From the IMG/VR virus record IMGVR_UViG_2537561605_000012: 7,330 bases of DNA; one strand, given 5' to 3'. Position 1 is the stretch's first letter; every line of letters starts with the position of its first letter. The notes under the pieces were generated by a model. The model saw only the letters and a program-made list of their open reading frames with translations. It had not been told where the DNA came from and did not search any database. Positions 2,488 to 6,289 of the stretch are shown one piece after another. The position numbers and the translations under genes are program-made. Source of the DNA: a virus. Taxonomy: Duplodnaviria; Heunggongvirae; Uroviricota; Caudoviricetes.

Positions 2488-2511
2488 GCCCCGGTTATCC
2501 GGGGCTTTTTT
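2488..2511 (+). terminator. Intrinsic (Rho-independent) terminator-like hairpin in the V-G intergenic region
   Basis: GCCCCGG (2488-2494), loop TTAT, CCGGGGC (2499-2505) form a perfect 7-bp all-GC stem, followed directly by TTTTTT (2506-2511). It lies 21 nt after the V stop and ends 17 nt before the G start. The minus-strand equivalent has no U-tract, so it is oriented for + strand transcripts. Confidence 0.55.
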
Positions 2512-2527
2512 GCAGGTGGAGAACATG

Positions 2528-2914
2528 ATGTTTCTGAAACAGGGCACGTTTAATTATGAAAAGCAGTCCGTGGTGCTCAGTGAGCTGTCCGGGCTGCAGA
2601 GAATTGAATATCTGGCGTTTGTTCAGCAGCGAACGGCAAAGTTTGATGCCGAAGAGGGAGAACTGCCGGAGGCTGAACGACAGATTGCTTTTCTGCGGAT
2701 GGGGATGGATATCAATGCCTGGCTGGTTTCCCGCTCACTGTGGAATGCGGAACAGTCTCAGGATGTTGAGACGCTTTGCGCATCCGTTATTACAACATGG
2801 TCGTATGATGCCCTGGGAGCGGGGGCGGAGATGGTTCTGTCGCTGAGCGGTATGGGAGCCATTGAGAATGCCGGGGATTTGGAGCATGAGGTGCTGACGC
2901 CGGAAAAGTCCTGA
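2528..2914 (+). CDS. G: Tail assembly chaperone G-like (tape-measure chaperone), 128 aa
   Basis: MFLKQG... begins like lambda gpG (MFLK...), and the LSELS.LQRIE.LA block is conserved. AGGTGGAG (2514-2521) gives a 6-nt spacer to ATG 2528; an in-frame ATG at 2525 is possible. The ORF-track start at 2486 lies inside the terminator hairpin and is unlikely. Stop is TGA 2912-2914. Confidence 0.85.
   Translation: MFLKQGTFNYEKQSVVLSELSGLQRIEYLAFVQQRTAKFDAEEGELPEAERQIAFLRMGMDINAWLVSRSLWNAEQSQDVETLCASVITTWSYDALGAGAEMVLSLSGMGAIENAGDLEHEVLTPEKS
2902..2908 (+). other. Putative programmed -1 ribosomal frameshift (slippery) site producing the G-T fusion
   Basis: The G frame (stop at 2912-2914) and the -1 frame (open from 2890 to 3252) overlap only over 2890-2911. 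The only slip-prone heptamer there is G GAA AAG (2902-2908), with the stop codon 3 nt downstream. Lambda uses G GGA AAG at the equivalent position. Shifting here gives ...LTPEK-VLTREMQFVMRLAREF... Confidence 0.5.
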
Positions 2915-3252
2915 CGCGGGAAATGCAGTTTGTCATGCGGCTTGCCCGGGAGTTCCGGCGGGCAGACTGGCGGCGGATGCTGTCGGAAATGTCGGCCACT
3001 GAGCTTGGTGAGTGGGGCGATTATTTCCGGATGCAGAGCTTCAGTGATGTGTGGATGGATGCGCAGTTTGCCTCGCTGAAGGCATTGATCGTGAGAATGG
3101 TGTCCGGTAGCAGTGATGCTGCGGTGGCTGATTTCAGCCTTTTACCGGAAGAGAACGGGATACCGGAGCGAACGGACGAAGAACTGATGCATCTTGGGGA
3201 AGGTATTTCCGGAGGTGTGCGTTATGGACCAGATAGCCAACCTGGTCATTGA
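2908..3252 (+). CDS. T: T-frame segment of tail assembly chaperone G-T, expressed as a G-T fusion by -1 frameshift (fusion spans 2528-3252, about 241 aa). Not expected to be translated independently.
   Basis: An ORF in the -1 frame relative to G starts inside the 3' end of G. There is no convincing RBS for the internal ATG at 2923. The G/GT arrangement immediately upstream of the tape measure gene is the conserved architecture of long-tailed phages. Stop is TGA 3250-3252. Confidence 0.7.
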   Translation, partial: VLTREMQFVMRLAREFRRADWRRMLSEMSATELGEWGDYFRMQSFSDVWMDAQFASLKALIVRMVSGSSDAAVADFSLLPEENGIPERTDEELMHLGEGISGGVRYGPDSQPGH

Positions 3253-6200
3253 TTTGGGGATTGATGCGGCAGAGTTTAAAAATGAAATTCCCCGTATCAA
3301 AAACCTTCTGAATGGTGCAGCCAGCGATGCAGAACGGTCTTCTGCCCGTATGCAGCGTTTTATGGAGCGTCAGACTCAGGCCGCCCGGCAGACAATGCAG
3401 GCGGCTTCTTCGGCTGCAACAGCCGCATCCGTCCATGCGCAGACGGTGGAGAAGAGCGCACAGGCTCATGAACGCATGGCCCGCGAGGTGGAGCAAACCC
3501 GCCAGCGTATGGAGGCACTGAGCCAGAAAATGCGCGAGGAACAGGCGCAGGCCATGGCTCTGGCGGAGGCTCAGGATAAAGCGGCTGCTGCGTTTTATCG
3601 TCAGATTGACAGTGTGAAACAGGCCGGTGCGGGGCTGCAGGAATTACAGCGTATTCAGCAACAGATCCGACAGGCCAGAAACAGTGGCGGGATTGGTCAG
3701 CAGGATTATCTGGCGCTGATTTCTGAGGTTACGGCGAAAACCCGTGTTCTTACACAGGCTGAGGAAGAGGCTACCCGACAGAAAGTGGCGTTTATCCGTC
3801 AGCTTAAAGAGCAGGCAACCCGCCAGAATCTTTCTTCTTCTGAGTTGCTTCGTGCTAAGGCTGCCCAGCTGGGGGTAAGCAGTGCTGCAGAAGTGTATAT
3901 CCGCAAAATGGAGCAGGCAGGAAAAGCCACGCATTCGCTGGGTCTGAAAAGTGCAGCAGCCCGTCAGGAGATAGGCGTTCTGATAGGTGAACTGGCCCGC
4001 GGCAATTTAGGTGCGCTGAGGGGATCCGGAATAACGCTGGCTAACCGTGCCGGGTGGATAGACACACTGATGTCACCGAAAGGCATGATGCCAGGAGCGG
4101 TTATTGGCGGTATTGCCGCGGCTGTCTATGGTCTGGGTAAAGCCTGGTATGACGGTCAGAAGGAGGGGGAAGAATTTAACCGCCAGCTGTCGCTGACGGG
4201 GCATTATGCCGGAGTCACTGCCGGGCAGCTGTGGACGCTCAGTCGTGCTATTTCCGGGAATGGTATCACGCAACATGCTGCAGCCGGTGCGCTGGCTCAG
4301 GTGGTGGGGAGTGGTGCATTTCGTGGAAACGATATCGGTATGGTGGCGAGAGCTGCCGCACAGATGGAGCGATCGGTTGGCCAGTCGGTCAGCGATACCA
4401 TAAATCAGTTTAAGCGGCTGAAGGATGATCCTGTAAATGCCGCGAAGGCTCTGGACAATGAGCTGCATTTTCTTACTGCCACTCAGCTTGAGCAGATACG
4501 CGTCCTTGGGGAGCAGGGGCGGTCCAGTGATGCTGCACGGATAGCCATGTCTGCACTGGCAGAGGAAACCGGTCGGCGTACTGCGGATATTGATAATAAC
4601 CTCAATGCGCTTGGCAGTACGCTGAAGTATCTGTCTGATTTGTGGAGTCGTTTCTGGGATGCGGCCATGAATATTGGTCGTGAAGACTCGCTGGATGAAC
4701 AGATTGCCGCTTTACAGGAGAAAGTGTCGCGGGCGAAAAGACTCCCCTGGACGGCATCATCTTCTCAGGTTGAATACGATCAGCAGCGTCTTAACGATCT
4801 TCAGGAGAAAAAACGCCAGAAGGATTTGCAGGATGCAAAAGAGCAGGCAGAGCGGAATTATCAGGAGCAACAGAAACGCCGTAATGCTGAAAATGCTGCA
4901 CTGAACCGGATGAATGAAACGGAAGCAGCACGACATCAGCGTGAAATAGCGCGTATTAATGCCATGCAGTACGCCGATCAGGCTGTCAGGGATGCGGCGA
5001 TACAACGTGAAAATGAACGTTACGAGAAAGCCCTGGCATCCGGTAAGAAAAAAACACGCGAAACCCGTAATGATGAGGCCACCCGGTTATTGCTGCAGTA
5101 CAGTCAGCAACAGGCACAGGTGGAAGGACAGATTGCTGCTGCCAGACAGTCAGCAGGCATTGCCACGGAAAGGATGACAGAAGCGCGTAAACAGCTTCTG
5201 GCTCTGCAGCAGCGCATCAGCGACCTGGACGGGAAAAAACTGACGGCAGATGAAAAGAGTGTGCTGGCCCGTAAAGATGAACTGATTCAGGCACTGACGC
5301 TGCTGGATGTAAAACAGCAGGAGCTTCAGAAACAGACGGCACTCAACGAGCTGAAGAAAAAAACAATTCAGCTGACCAGTCAACTGGCTGAAGAAGAGCG
5401 CGCTCAGCGTCAGCAACATGACCTGGATATCGCCACGGTGGGTATGGGTGATCAGCAGCGACAGCGATATCAGGTACAACTGAGTCTTCGCCAGAAATAC
5501 CAGCAACAGCTGGAGCAGTTGAGGCGGGATAGTGAGCAGAAAGGGACATATAACACGGATGACTACAGAAAGGCCGAGCAGGCGCTGACGGAGAGCCTGA
5601 ACCGACAACTGAATGAGAATCGCCGTTACTGGCAACAGCTTGAAGTTGTACAGGGTAACTGGAAAAACGGAGTCCTGCGTGCATTTCAGGATTTTACCGT
5701 GGATGCAGATAATACGGCAGAAACAGCAGAACAGGTGTTCTCGTCAGCCTTCAGCAACATGGGAAATGGCCTGGCAACTTTTGTCACTACCGGCAAACTC
5801 AATTTCAAATCCTTCACCTCTTCTGTGCTGTCAGATATGGCGAAAATCCTGGCGCAGGCAACCATGATGAAATCGATAAAAGGGATTGGCAGTGTACTGG
5901 GATTTGATCTCAGCAGCCTTTCCCTGAATGCCAATGGGGGGATTTATCAGTCTGCTGATTTGAGTCGTTACAGTGGCACGGTGGTTAACCGTCCGACGTT
6001 TTTTGCTTTTGCAAAAGGCGCGGGTGTGATGGGGGAAGCGGGACCTGAAGCCATTCTGCCATTGCGTCGTGGTGCTGACGGTAAGCTGGGGGTTGTGGCG
6101 GATATTGGGGGTTCAGGTATGGCGATGTTTTCCCCGCAGTACAACATCGAGATCAATAACGATGGCACGAACGGGCAGATAGGTCCGGCTGCCCTGAAGG

Positions 6201-6289
6201 CGGTTTATGACCTCGGGAAAAAAGCGGCAGCGGACTTTATGCAACAGCAGGCCCGTGATGGTGGTCGGTTAAGTGGAGCATATCGGTAA
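3224..6289 (+). CDS. H: Tail tape measure protein H-like (tail length determinant), about 1021 aa
   Basis: GGAGGTG at 3211-3217 gives a 6-nt spacer to ATG 3224. The N-terminus (MDQIANLVIDLGIDAAEF) resembles lambda H (M...GDLVVDLSLDAARF). There is a long Q/R/E/A/K-rich predicted coiled-coil central region, then a hydrophobic/Gly-rich segment. The C-terminus (NNDGTNGQIGPAALKAVYD...RDGG..SG) is almost identical to the lambda H C-terminus as recalled. The ORF-track start at 3194 is a TTG extension. Confidence 0.92.
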   Translation: MDQIANLVIDLGIDAAEFKNEIPRIKNLLNGAASDAERSSARMQRFMERQTQAARQTMQAASSAATAASVHAQTVEKSAQAHERMAREVEQTRQRMEALSQKMREEQAQAMALAEAQDKAAAAFYRQIDSVKQAGAGLQELQRIQQQIRQARNSGGIGQQDYLALISEVTAKTRVLTQAEEEATRQKVAFIRQLKEQATRQNLSSSELLRAKAAQLGVSSAAEVYIRKMEQAGKATHSLGLKSAAARQEIGVLIGELARGNLGALRGSGITLANRAGWIDTLMSPKGMMPGAVIGGIAAAVYGLGKAWYDGQKEGEEFNRQLSLTGHYAGVTAGQLWTLSRAISGNGITQHAAAGALAQVVGSGAFRGNDIGMVARAAAQMERSVGQSVSDTINQFKRLKDDPVNAAKALDNELHFLTATQLEQIRVLGEQGRSSDAARIAMSALAEETGRRTADIDNNLNALGSTLKYLSDLWSRFWDAAMNIGREDSLDEQIAALQEKVSRAKRLPWTASSSQVEYDQQRLNDLQEKKRQKDLQDAKEQAERNYQEQQKRRNAENAALNRMNETEAARHQREIARINAMQYADQAVRDAAIQRENERYEKALASGKKKTRETRNDEATRLLLQYSQQQAQVEGQIAAARQSAGIATERMTEARKQLLALQQRISDLDGKKLTADEKSVLARKDELIQALTLLDVKQQELQKQTALNELKKKTIQLTSQLAEEERAQRQQHDLDIATVGMGDQQRQRYQVQLSLRQKYQQQLEQLRRDSEQKGTYNTDDYRKAEQALTESLNRQLNENRRYWQQLEVVQGNWKNGVLRAFQDFTVDADNTAETAEQVFSSAFSNMGNGLATFVTTGKLNFKSFTSSVLSDMAKILAQATMMKSIKGIGSVLGFDLSSLSLNANGGIYQSADLSRYSGTVVNRPTFFAFAKGAGVMGEAGPEAILPLRRGADGKLGVVADIGGSGMAMFSPQYNIEINNDGTNGQIGPAALKAVYDLGKKAAADFMQQQARDGGRLSGAYR

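What the first reader, a model, noticed from the sequence alone, without database searches (positions are those of the whole stretch)
2890..2911. G-T programmed -1 frameshift appears to use GGAAAAG rather than lambda's GGGAAAG
The G and T reading frames overlap over only 22 nt, and within that stretch the only slip-prone sequence is G GAA AAG (2902-2908). After a -1 slip the P-site tRNA-Glu would re-pair with GGA through a middle-position G:U pair, and the A-site tRNA-Lys with AAA. The G stop codon lies 3 nt downstream. This variant heptamer implies a different, probably lower, frameshift efficiency than the lambda site, which would change the G:GT ratio.
Basis: partly seen in the sequence, partly recalled or inferred. 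Interest (0 to 1): 0.45.

Follow-up and report, generated by a model that had tools for sequence, protein, structure and literature searches.

The report
Phage tail-chaperone frameshift site, GGAAAAG type
This is the ordinary ribosome-slipping site that lets a lambda-like E. coli prophage make a small amount of a fused G-T tail-assembly protein; its GGAAAAG sequence differs by one base from lambda's, but the same sequence is already annotated in phage N15 and is the commonest version among the relatives I sampled.

Summary
G (2525-2914) and the -1 frame carrying the T domain (open 2890-3252) overlap by 22 nt. The only in-phase slip-prone sequence there is G_GAA_AAG (2902-2908), and the G stop lies 3 nt downstream.

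The site is homologous to lambda's G_GGA_AAG. In 31 lineage representatives the Lys codon sits exactly 11 residues before an invariant LARE motif in the -1 frame. Across 16 GGAAAAG lineages (median G-gene nucleotide identity 49%) all seven bases are invariant while the flanks vary. The ATG at 2923, used by GenBank and RefSeq to annotate a free-standing T, has almost no ribosome-binding site and is not conserved.

The heptamer is not new. The N15 GenBank record marks GGAAAAG as the "slippery sequence for -1 translational frameshift". phi80, HK225, mEp213 and Gifsy-1 carry it too, and it is commoner in my sample than lambda's form. Both forms occur in both major clades, so they have interchanged.

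Lower efficiency is plausible: Peng 2019 used this sequence as a poorly slipping control in vitro. No measurement in the G-T context was found. I found no conserved stimulator; a GAGGUG 8 nt upstream is clade-specific.

Verdict: a real, ordinary, under-annotated member of a known kind.

The parts
2525..2914 (+). Gene G, tail assembly chaperone (129 aa from ATG 2525; ends ...TPEKS, stop TGA 2912-2914)
   Evidence: Pfam PF06894 Phage_TAC_2, E 1.8e-39. SD-like GCAGGTGG upstream, -7.0 kcal/mol. Annotated gpG in RefSeq.
2890..2911 (+). Overlap of the open G frame and the open -1 (T) frame, 22 nt
   Evidence: -1 frame stop TGA at 2887-2889; G stop at 2912-2914.
2902..2908 (+). Slip site G_GAA_AAG. 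P-site codon GAA (Glu), A-site codon AAG (Lys); after the -1 slip they face GGA and AAA
   Evidence: Only in-phase candidate in the overlap. 7/7 bases invariant in 16 diverged lineages. Homologous to lambda GGGAAAG. The same heptamer is annotated as the slippery sequence in N15, AF064539 10027-10033.
2908..3252 (+). -1 frame part of the GT fusion (114 aa from GTC 2908: VLTREMQFVMRLARE...; stop 3250-3252). The full GT is 2525-2908 joined to 2908-3249, 242 aa
   Evidence: Pfam PF06223 Phage_tail_T, E 5.1e-15. The -1 frame peptide is conserved from the first codon after the heptamer, [VA][LF]xxE[LMI]xF[VA][ML]xLARE, in 31 lineages.
2888..2893 (+). Shine-Dalgarno-like GAGGUG, 8 nt upstream of the heptamer; a possible but unproven stimulator
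   Evidence: Duplex with the 16S 3' end -9.2 kcal/mol, 7th percentile of the gene's own background. Weaker in close relatives (GAGGCG, -5.6) and absent in N15, HK225, phi80, mEp213 and PSTCR8lys, which use the same heptamer.
2923..2925 (+). ATG used by GenBank and RefSeq as the start of a free-standing 109-aa T; probably not a real start
   Evidence: Anti-SD pairing only -1.1 kcal/mol, against -7 to -13 for G, V, H, L and Z. The Met is replaced by I, L or R in Salmonella-type loci, Gifsy-1, L195 and N15. Annotated as a separate CDS.
2488..2515 (+). Intrinsic-terminator-like hairpin plus T run between V and G (context, not part of the slip signal)
   Evidence: Annotated as a terminator in the Ayreon and mEp460 records.
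3224..6289 (+). Tape measure gene H, downstream partner of G/GT; its start overlaps the end of T by 29 nt
   Evidence: Pfam TMP_2, Tape_meas_lam_C and TMP_4. Strong SD GGAGGTGT, -13.1 kcal/mol.

Best explanation
The window is the tail module of a lambdoid E. coli prophage of the cdtI / mEp460 / Ayreon type.

Most ribosomes translating G stop at TGA 2912 and make the chaperone G. A minority slip back one base while GAA (Glu) and AAG (Lys) occupy the P and A sites at G_GAA_AAG (2902-2908). They then read GTC at 2908 and continue in the -1 frame to 3252, making a 242-aa GT fusion with the junction ...TPEK-VLTREMQ....

The driver is E. coli tRNA-Lys, which re-pairs from AAG to the cognate AAA. The P-site tRNA-Glu can re-pair with GGA through G-C, G.U and A-U. 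The site is therefore intermediate between a canonical X_XXY_YYZ heptamer and a bare A_AAG tetramer.

By analogy with lambda, the G part of G and GT binds the tape measure protein, and the T part recruits the major tail protein.

Shown here: the frames, the phase, the homology of position, the nucleotide-level conservation, and the lack of a conserved start or RBS for T.

Inferred, not shown: that slipping occurs, its frequency, and whether both tRNAs or only tRNA-Lys move.
For: 1. Anatomy. G is PF06894, the -1 ORF is PF06223, and they lie between the major tail gene and the tape measure gene. The overlap is 22 nt with one in-phase slip-prone site.

2. Homology. Lambda's -1 frame after GGGAAAG reads GKVFDGELSFALKLARE and the window's reads GKVLTREMQFVMRLARE. 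In 31 lineage representatives the Lys codon is always 11 residues before LARE.

3. Conservation at the nucleotide rather than the protein level.
- The heptamer is invariant in 16 lineages with median 49% nucleotide identity, while upstream flanks have a major allele at only about 30-60%.
- The Lys codon at the site is always AAG, although elsewhere in these G genes AAA outnumbers AAG 54 to 29.
- The preceding codon encodes P, A or L but always ends in G (CCG 9, GCG 6, CTG 1).
- Across the whole family the P-site amino acid varies (E, G, K, P, A) while the A_AAR core is constant.

4. Overlap length varies from 16 to 82 nt among relatives, so the heptamer is the only constant element in it.

5. 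Precedent in records. N15 annotates GGAAAAG as the slippery sequence and gene 15 as the 'downstream half of translational frameshift product'. Gifsy-1's T homologue is described as made 'by translational frameshifting'.

6. Isolated phages carry this heptamer: Ayreon (99.9% identical to the window), mEp460, phi80 and N15.

7. T has no credible start of its own.
Against: No direct evidence of the GT protein exists for this phage group in anything I could reach.

In a purified E. coli system G_GAA_AAG gave mainly 0-frame product at all EF-G concentrations, and it was chosen as the poorly slipping comparator to G_GGA_AAG (Peng 2019).

Tetramer motifs, of which A_AAG is the best, averaged about 0.15% against 0.11% background without a stimulator, and A_AAG needed a strong pseudoknot to reach 5.6% (Sharma 2014).

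I found no significant or conserved downstream structure (z -0.31 and -1.43) and no generally conserved upstream SD. What raises the frequency to a useful level, if anything does, is therefore unexplained.

The lineages are related by descent, so the codon-choice probabilities overstate independence.
Confidence: 0.85

Rival explanations
1. The slip happens at the same place, but only tRNA-Lys moves (single-tRNA slippage on the A_AAG tetramer, or the NNA_AAG 'hexanucleotide' type). The tRNA-Glu in the P site does not re-pair, and the leading G is incidental.
For: NNA_AAG sites are used without P-site re-pairing in B. subtilis cdd (A_CGA_AAG) and IS1222 (G_CGA_AAG) (Atkins 2016). Family members with G_GCA_AAA followed by TAG (L094, L111, L114) cannot re-pair the P-site tRNA-Ala, yet keep the same position. 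[quoted passage not shown]
Against: Heptamer position 1 is G in all 16 GGAAAAG lineages, although the codon holding it encodes P, A or L. It also tracks the P-site codon across types: G for GGA and GAA, A for AAA, C for CCA. That pattern is what P-site re-pairing predicts. However, CCG, GCG and CTG are also the commonest E. coli codons for those residues (own knowledge), so the argument is moderate only.
Confidence: 0.3
2. T is made on its own, by initiation or termination-reinitiation at ATG 2923, which lies 8 nt after the G stop. This is what every GenBank and RefSeq record of this group annotates. No fusion is made.
For: All records examined annotate a separate T CDS. In RefSeq (WP_001161009.1), mEp460 and Tritos it is the 109-aa CDS from this ATG; Ayreon starts its T CDS further downstream. 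The ATG is close enough to the G stop for coupling in principle.
Against: Anti-SD pairing upstream is -1.1 kcal/mol, against -7 to -13 for real starts in the window. The Met is not conserved (I, L or R in relatives), and neither is the next Met at 2935, which is L in lambda and phi80. The -1 frame peptide is conserved upstream of the ATG, right back to the heptamer (VL.RE), which is unexpected for untranslated sequence. In lambda T is known only as part of GT (Levin 1993, as cited).
Confidence: 0.05
3. The G-to-A difference from lambda is a disabling mutation. This prophage's GT frameshift is decayed and the tail module is a relic.
For: G_GAA_AAG slips poorly in vitro. Many E. coli prophages are defective (own knowledge).
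Against: The same heptamer is present in phages isolated on E. coli (Ayreon on K12, mEp460) and in phi80 and N15. It is invariant across lineages with 43-94% pairwise nucleotide identity. It is the commonest state in both major clades. The module is intact and present in 1848 of 5426 complete E. coli genomes.
Confidence: 0.03
4. The frame change is made by RNA polymerase slippage on the A run, or by a ribosomal shift at another codon in the overlap.
For: None specific. The overlap is short enough that only direct peptide data can fix the codon.
Against: The A run is only 4 bases; the transcriptional slippage motifs cited are runs of more than 7 A or more than 8 T. No other codon pair in 2890-2911 allows cognate or near-cognate -1 re-pairing. 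Overlap sequences other than the heptamer are not conserved.
Confidence: 0.02

Closest known systems
Phage lambda G/GT programmed -1 frameshift (G_GGA_AAG)
   Same: Same protein families (PF06894 and PF06223), the same gene order V-G-T-H, the same slip position relative to the LARE motif, the same A-site codon AAG with tRNA-Lys re-pairing to AAA, and no known need for a downstream structure.
   Different: Base 3 of the heptamer is A, not G. The P-site codon is therefore GAA (Glu), not GGA (Gly), and re-pairing needs a second-position G.U. The G stop is 3 nt after the site rather than 15, and the overlap is 22 nt rather than 61. G proteins are only about 33-36% identical.
Phage N15 gene 14/15 frameshift (GenBank AF064539; also HK225, phi80, mEp213)
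   Same: An identical heptamer, GGAAAAG, at the homologous position. In the N15 record it is annotated as 'slippery sequence for -1 translational frameshift'.
   Different: The preceding codon is GCG (Ala) rather than CCG (Pro). The G stop is 15 nt downstream. There is no SD-like sequence upstream (0 kcal/mol against -9.2 in the window). It belongs to the other major clade of the family.
Gifsy-1 (Salmonella) STM2596/STM2595
   Same: The closest named relative outside E. coli (about 59% identity over GT). Same ccGGAAAAGtccTGA arrangement, and the record states that T is made by translational frameshifting.
   Different: The record does not mark the heptamer. The upstream SD-like element is weak (-5.3 kcal/mol).
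NNA_AAG 'hexanucleotide' and A_AAG tetramer -1 sites in bacteria (B. subtilis cdd A_CGA_AAG; IS1222 G_CGA_AAG)
   Same: The slip is driven by tRNA-Lys on A_AAG, with a P-site codon that cannot re-pair perfectly. Efficiency is low and context-dependent.
   Different: Here the P-site tRNA can still form two Watson-Crick pairs plus a G.U. The known cases rely on stimulators, and none is conserved here.
'G_GA' near-canonical heptamers of eukaryotic RNA viruses (for example pea enation mosaic virus G_GAU_UUU_UGG_UAG)
   Same: The same G_GAN departure from X_XXY, and in PEMV also a stop codon 3 nt 3' of the shift site that affects efficiency.
   Different: Eukaryotic ribosomes, a UUU A-site codon, and dependence on downstream RNA structures. 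The resemblance is a lead, not a test.

Membership tests
Lambda-type G/GT tail assembly chaperone with programmed -1 frameshift | Two overlapping ORFs between the major tail protein gene and the tape measure gene, the second in the -1 frame | tested here: met
   V 1724-2467, G 2525-2914, -1 ORF 2890-3252, H 3224-6289.
Lambda-type G/GT tail assembly chaperone with programmed -1 frameshift | The upstream ORF belongs to the gpG chaperone family and the downstream ORF to the gpT family | tested here: met
   PF06894 E 1.8e-39; PF06223 E 5.1e-15.
Lambda-type G/GT tail assembly chaperone with programmed -1 frameshift | A slip-prone sequence in the overlap, in the phase of the upstream ORF, at a conserved position | tested here: met
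   G_GAA_AAG at 2902-2908, in phase. The Lys codon is 11 residues before LARE in all 31 lineages. The heptamer is invariant in 16 lineages.
Lambda-type G/GT tail assembly chaperone with programmed -1 frameshift | The downstream ORF lacks its own conserved start and ribosome-binding site | tested here: met
   ATG 2923 is not conserved, and its SD pairing is -1.1 kcal/mol.
Lambda-type G/GT tail assembly chaperone with programmed -1 frameshift | A GT fusion protein is made at a low fixed ratio to G and is needed for tail assembly | not testable with these tools
   Needs a western blot, mass spectrometry or a reporter, plus genetics.
Canonical X_XXY_YYZ slippery heptamer | The first three bases are identical, so the P-site tRNA re-pairs with at most a wobble-position change | tested here: not met
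   The bases are G, G, A, so re-pairing of tRNA-Glu needs a second-position G.U (Peng 2019). For the same reason Sharma 2014's genome search, limited to X_XXZ_ZZN, could not find this site.
Canonical X_XXY_YYZ slippery heptamer | Bases 4-6 are identical, so the A-site tRNA re-pairs with a cognate codon | tested here: met
   A_AAG to AAA, both read by the single E. coli tRNA-Lys.
A_AAG tetramer / NNA_AAG hexanucleotide -1 sites | A_AAG in phase with a non-re-pairing or partly re-pairing 5' codon | tested here: met
   GAA_AAG in phase. The class is described in Atkins 2016 and Sharma 2014.
A_AAG tetramer / NNA_AAG hexanucleotide -1 sites | Dependence on a stimulator (an upstream SD-like sequence or a downstream structure) | tested here: inconclusive
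   The window has GAGGUG 8 nt upstream (-9.2 kcal/mol, 7th percentile), but N15 and phi80-type loci with the same heptamer have none. Downstream folds are not better than shuffles (z -0.31, -1.43).

The most novel reading that the evidence does not exclude
G_GAA_AAG, the sequence used in vitro as a poorly slipping control, may in its natural G-T context shift at a rate comparable to lambda's few per cent. The cause would be features missing from minimal systems.

Both slipping tRNAs (Glu and Lys) carry the 2-thiolated wobble uridine made by the TusA/MnmA pathway, whereas in lambda only tRNA-Lys does. The G:GT ratio of this very common prophage family would then be doubly sensitive to host sulfur and tRNA-modification state. 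In the window's clade there may also be help from the GAGGUG 8 nt upstream or from the stop codon 3 nt downstream.

Repeated switching between GGAAAAG and GGGAAAG would then be a way of tuning that sensitivity.
Probability: 0.15. Interest if true: 0.5.

Novelty: new member of a known kind. Interest (0 to 1): 0.25.

Why it matters
There are three practical consequences.

1. Annotation. This module is present in about a third of complete E. coli genomes (1848 of 5426), and in every record examined T is annotated as a free-standing CDS rather than as the second half of a GT fusion. Tools that look only for X_XXY_YYZ heptamers will miss it.

2. Choice of reference. Lambda's GGGAAAG is usually quoted as the G-T slip site, but among the lambdoid lineages sampled here GGAAAAG is commoner. 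The two forms have interchanged at least twice, so the textbook site is not the typical one.

3. An open measurement. I found no measurement of GGAAAAG frequency in a G-T context. Because the G:GT ratio matters for lambda tail assembly, a simple reporter comparison would show either that these phages tolerate much less GT or that context rescues a weak site.

None of this changes the understanding of the mechanism as a kind.

Tried and rejected
1. Compensation of the weaker heptamer by an upstream Shine-Dalgarno-like stimulator. The window (GAGGUG, -9.2 kcal/mol), some Salmonella-type loci (GGAGG, -9.8) and a Symbiopectobacterium locus (-10.4) have one. Close relatives with GAGGCG are unremarkable (20-35th percentile). 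N15, HK225, phi80, mEp213 and PSTCR8lys have none. The linker is also rich in Glu and Gly codons, which create such strings by chance. Rejected as a general rule and kept only as a clade-specific possibility.

2. A downstream stimulatory structure. Folds of 2909-2990 and 2870-3030 are no better than shuffles. I did not run an alignment fold, because downstream conservation is explained by T coding.

3. Transcriptional slippage. Rejected because the A run is only 4 bases.

4. Independent T initiation. Rejected on RBS strength and non-conservation.

5. Searches that gave little:
- The genome-contig scan returned only 13 loci because its peptide patterns were strict.
- The P0099 scan returned one locus.
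- Xu et al. 2004 (PubMed 15469818) is not held.
- PRFect's supplement has nothing on N15 or this heptamer.
- Full-text searches for GGAAAAG or 'G GAA AAG' with phage, tail or slippery returned only Peng 2019.
- The 2025 bioRxiv frameshift screen does not include this sequence.

6. P0032 and P0046, database proteins with both G and T domains, are internal-deletion fusions, not annotated frameshift products.

Full report
**What the window is**

The 7330-nt window is the tail module of a lambdoid prophage. Pfam identifies Z (737-1315), U (1300-1713), the major tail protein V with a C-terminal Big_2 domain (1724-2467), G (2525-2914, PF06894, E 1.8e-39), a -1 frame ORF with the T domain (PF06223, E 5.1e-15), a 1021-aa tape measure protein (3224-6289), M and L.

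The G-T region is 99.9% identical to Escherichia phage Ayreon and 97.6-99.7% identical to the phi458, cdtI and mEp460 group. It occurs in 1848 of 5426 complete E. coli genomes, including O157:H7.

**Checking the observation**

The G frame ends ...CCG GAA AAG TCC TGA, with the stop at 2912-2914. The -1 frame has a TGA at 2887-2889 and is open from 2890 to 3252, so the overlap is 2890-2911, 22 nt. G_GAA_AAG lies at 2902-2908 in the right phase, and it is the only in-phase candidate in the overlap. The predicted junction is ...TPEK|VLTREMQ....

The heptamer by itself is not rare. It occurs 5 times in the window against 1.23 expected, and the other + strand copies are out of phase. Significance has to come from comparison with relatives.

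**Homology with lambda**

Lambda's site reads tct gcG GGA AAG tgt. After the slip lambda gives GKVFDGELSFALKLARE, and the window gives GKVLTREMQFVMRLARE.

I collected 207 loci from IMG/VR, GTDB genomes and GenBank phages and reduced them to 31 lineage representatives. In every one the Lys codon of the slip site lies exactly 11 residues before an invariant LARE in the -1 frame. The -1 frame peptide is conserved from the first codon after the heptamer: [VA][LF]xxE[LMI]xF[VA][ML]xLARE. The site is therefore homologous throughout the family.

**Conservation at the nucleotide level**

Sixteen GGAAAAG lineages have G genes with a median of 49% nucleotide identity (range 43-94%).

- All seven heptamer bases are invariant, while upstream positions have a major allele at only about 30-60%.
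- Elsewhere in these G genes Lys is AAA 54 times and AAG 29 times, yet the slip-site Lys is always AAG.
- The codon before the heptamer encodes Pro, Ala or Leu but always ends in G (CCG 9, GCG 6, CTG 1).
- Across the whole family the P-site amino acid varies (Glu, Gly, Lys, Pro, Ala) while the A_AAR core does not.
- Overlap length varies from 16 to 82 nt.

These patterns point to selection on the RNA sequence rather than on the G protein. The lineages share ancestry, so the simple probabilities are upper bounds on significance.

**The rival: a free-standing T**

GenBank and RefSeq annotate T as a separate CDS in every record examined. RefSeq, mEp460 and Tritos start it at ATG 2923 (109 aa), and Ayreon starts it further downstream. 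That ATG has -1.1 kcal/mol of anti-SD pairing, against -7.0 for G, -13.0 for V, -13.1 for H, -10.2 for L and -9.6 for Z. The Met is replaced by Ile, Leu or Arg in Salmonella-type loci, Gifsy-1, L195 and N15. The next Met (2935) is Leu in lambda and phi80. The conserved -1 frame residues upstream of the ATG would be unexplained if they were not translated. I give this rival 0.05.

**Is the heptamer new? No**

The N15 GenBank record (AF064539) carries a misc_feature 'slippery sequence for -1 translational frameshift' at 10027-10033. I read that stretch as GGAAAAG. Gene 15 in the same record is the 'downstream half of translational frameshift product'. The Gifsy-1 record calls its T homologue 'part of bacteriophage tail assembly chaperone gpG by translational frameshifting', and its site is ccGGAAAAGtccTGA.

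| Heptamer | Representatives (of 31) | Which |
|---|---|---|
| GGAAAAG | 20 | window group, two E. coli sub-groups, Salmonella groups, Gifsy-1, Symbiopectobacterium, Superficieibacter, phi80, mEp213, an Enterobacter phage, N15, HK225, a Providencia phage |
| GGGAAAG | 6 | lambda, PhiR5_1, PhiR12_4, Serratia/Symbiopectobacterium loci |
| AAAAAAG | 2 | VT1-Sakai, an Stx1 phage |
| CCCAAAA | 1 | a Vibrio phage |
| GGCAAAA directly followed by TAG | 2 | IMG/VR loci |

A rough neighbour-joining tree of GT fusions, without bootstrap, has two major clades: one with the G stop 0-3 nt after the site and one with the stop 15 nt after. Both GGAAAAG and GGGAAAG occur in each clade. That implies at least two switches. 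Lambda's form is the minority state in this sample.

**How it most likely works**

E. coli has one tRNA-Lys for AAA and AAG, and its move from AAG to AAA is the known driver of bacterial -1 shifts. Bock et al. estimate that this A-site change is favourable (-2.9 kJ/mol) and that a P-site A.U to G.U change costs about 5 kJ/mol, the mildest class of mismatch. G_GAA_AAG should therefore be weakened, not dead.

Atkins et al. describe such cases as intermediates between hexanucleotide NNA_AAG sites (cdd, IS1222) and full heptamers. They list 'G_GA' variants in several eukaryotic virus groups. The constant G at heptamer position 1 favours some P-site re-pairing. The GGCAAAA-TAG lineages show that the family can also manage without it.

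**Efficiency**

Peng et al. used AUG GAA AAG as the sequence 'unfavorable for slippage' and saw mainly 0-frame product at any EF-G concentration, whereas G_GGA_AAG shifted more than 70% at low EF-G. Sharma et al. found tetramer motifs barely above background without a stimulator, and A_AAG at 5.6% with a strong pseudoknot. Lambda keeps the 0 frame about 96% of the time.

I found no measurement of GGAAAAG in a G-T context. I also found no conserved stimulator. Downstream folds are not better than shuffles (z -0.31 and -1.43). The upstream GAGGUG of the window (-9.2 kcal/mol, 8 nt upstream, 7th percentile of the gene's own background) is weaker in close relatives and absent from N15 and phi80-type loci. 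The actual G:GT ratio remains open.

**A speculative point**

The TUS pathway thiolates tRNA Lys, Glu and Gln, and its loss raises lambda GT frameshifting. At G_GAA_AAG both slipping tRNAs are targets of that pathway, whereas at lambda's site only tRNA-Lys is. This could make the ratio more sensitive to host state. Nothing here tests that.

**Verdict**

The identification of the slip site is well supported (0.85). The variant is an already annotated and in fact predominant form. The efficiency claim is plausible but untested. The main practical finding is systematic under-annotation of GT in this very common prophage family.

Noticed in passing
window 2488-2515: A strong intrinsic-terminator-like hairpin (GCCCCGG-TTAT-CCGGGGC followed by TTTTTT) sits between the major tail gene V and G. 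The Ayreon and mEp460 records annotate it as a terminator. It may set the V to G/GT/H expression ratio by partial termination.
   Followed up: partly
window 2923-3252; RefSeq WP_001161009.1 and GenBank phage records: Every record examined (Ayreon, mEp460, Tritos, an O157:H7 RefSeq chromosome) annotates T as a separate CDS with no join to G, in most cases as the 109-aa CDS from ATG 2923. This probable mis-annotation recurs in a module found in about 1848 complete E. coli genomes.
   Followed up: partly
L094, L111-L114 (Ewingella and IMG/VR contigs); L199 (Providencia phage PSTCR8lys): In these relatives the G stop codon directly follows the Lys codon (ctGGCAAAA-TAG; ctGGAAAAG-TAG). For G_GCA_AAA the P-site tRNA-Ala cannot re-pair, which suggests a tRNA-Lys-only slip, perhaps with the stop codon in the A site.
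   Followed up: no
window 2909-2914 and relatives: In the window's whole clade the G stop is exactly one sense codon (3 nt) after the heptamer, whereas in the lambda, N15 and phi80 clade it is 15 nt after. In pea enation mosaic virus, a stop 3 nt after a G_GAU_UUU site affects frameshifting (Atkins 2016). Whether stop distance matters here is unknown.
   Followed up: no
P0032, P0046, P0001: Public protein databases hold in-frame G-T fusions created by internal deletions (for example ...SYDA|GKVLTREMQ...) and a G with an internal duplication. These are either real deletion variants or assembly artefacts.
   Followed up: no
L086 (MAG 'Bacillota bacterium'), L089 (soil 'Proteobacteria' MAG): Contigs assigned to a Bacillota MAG and to a soil Proteobacteria MAG encode a G protein 94-99% identical to that of this E. 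coli prophage. This suggests mis-binned or contaminating E. coli prophage DNA in those MAGs.
   Followed up: no
window 3224-3252: The tape measure gene starts at ATG 3224, 29 nt before the end of the T frame, behind a strong GGAGGTGT Shine-Dalgarno sequence that lies inside T coding sequence. The tape measure protein is 1021 aa, against about 853 aa in lambda (lambda H is 10542-13103), which implies a longer tail.
   Followed up: no
window 353, 461(-), 1091(-), 2902, 3920: GGAAAAG occurs five times in the window against 1.23 expected (3 of 200 shuffles reach 5). The other + strand copies are out of phase with their ORFs, so this is probably compositional.
   Followed up: partly
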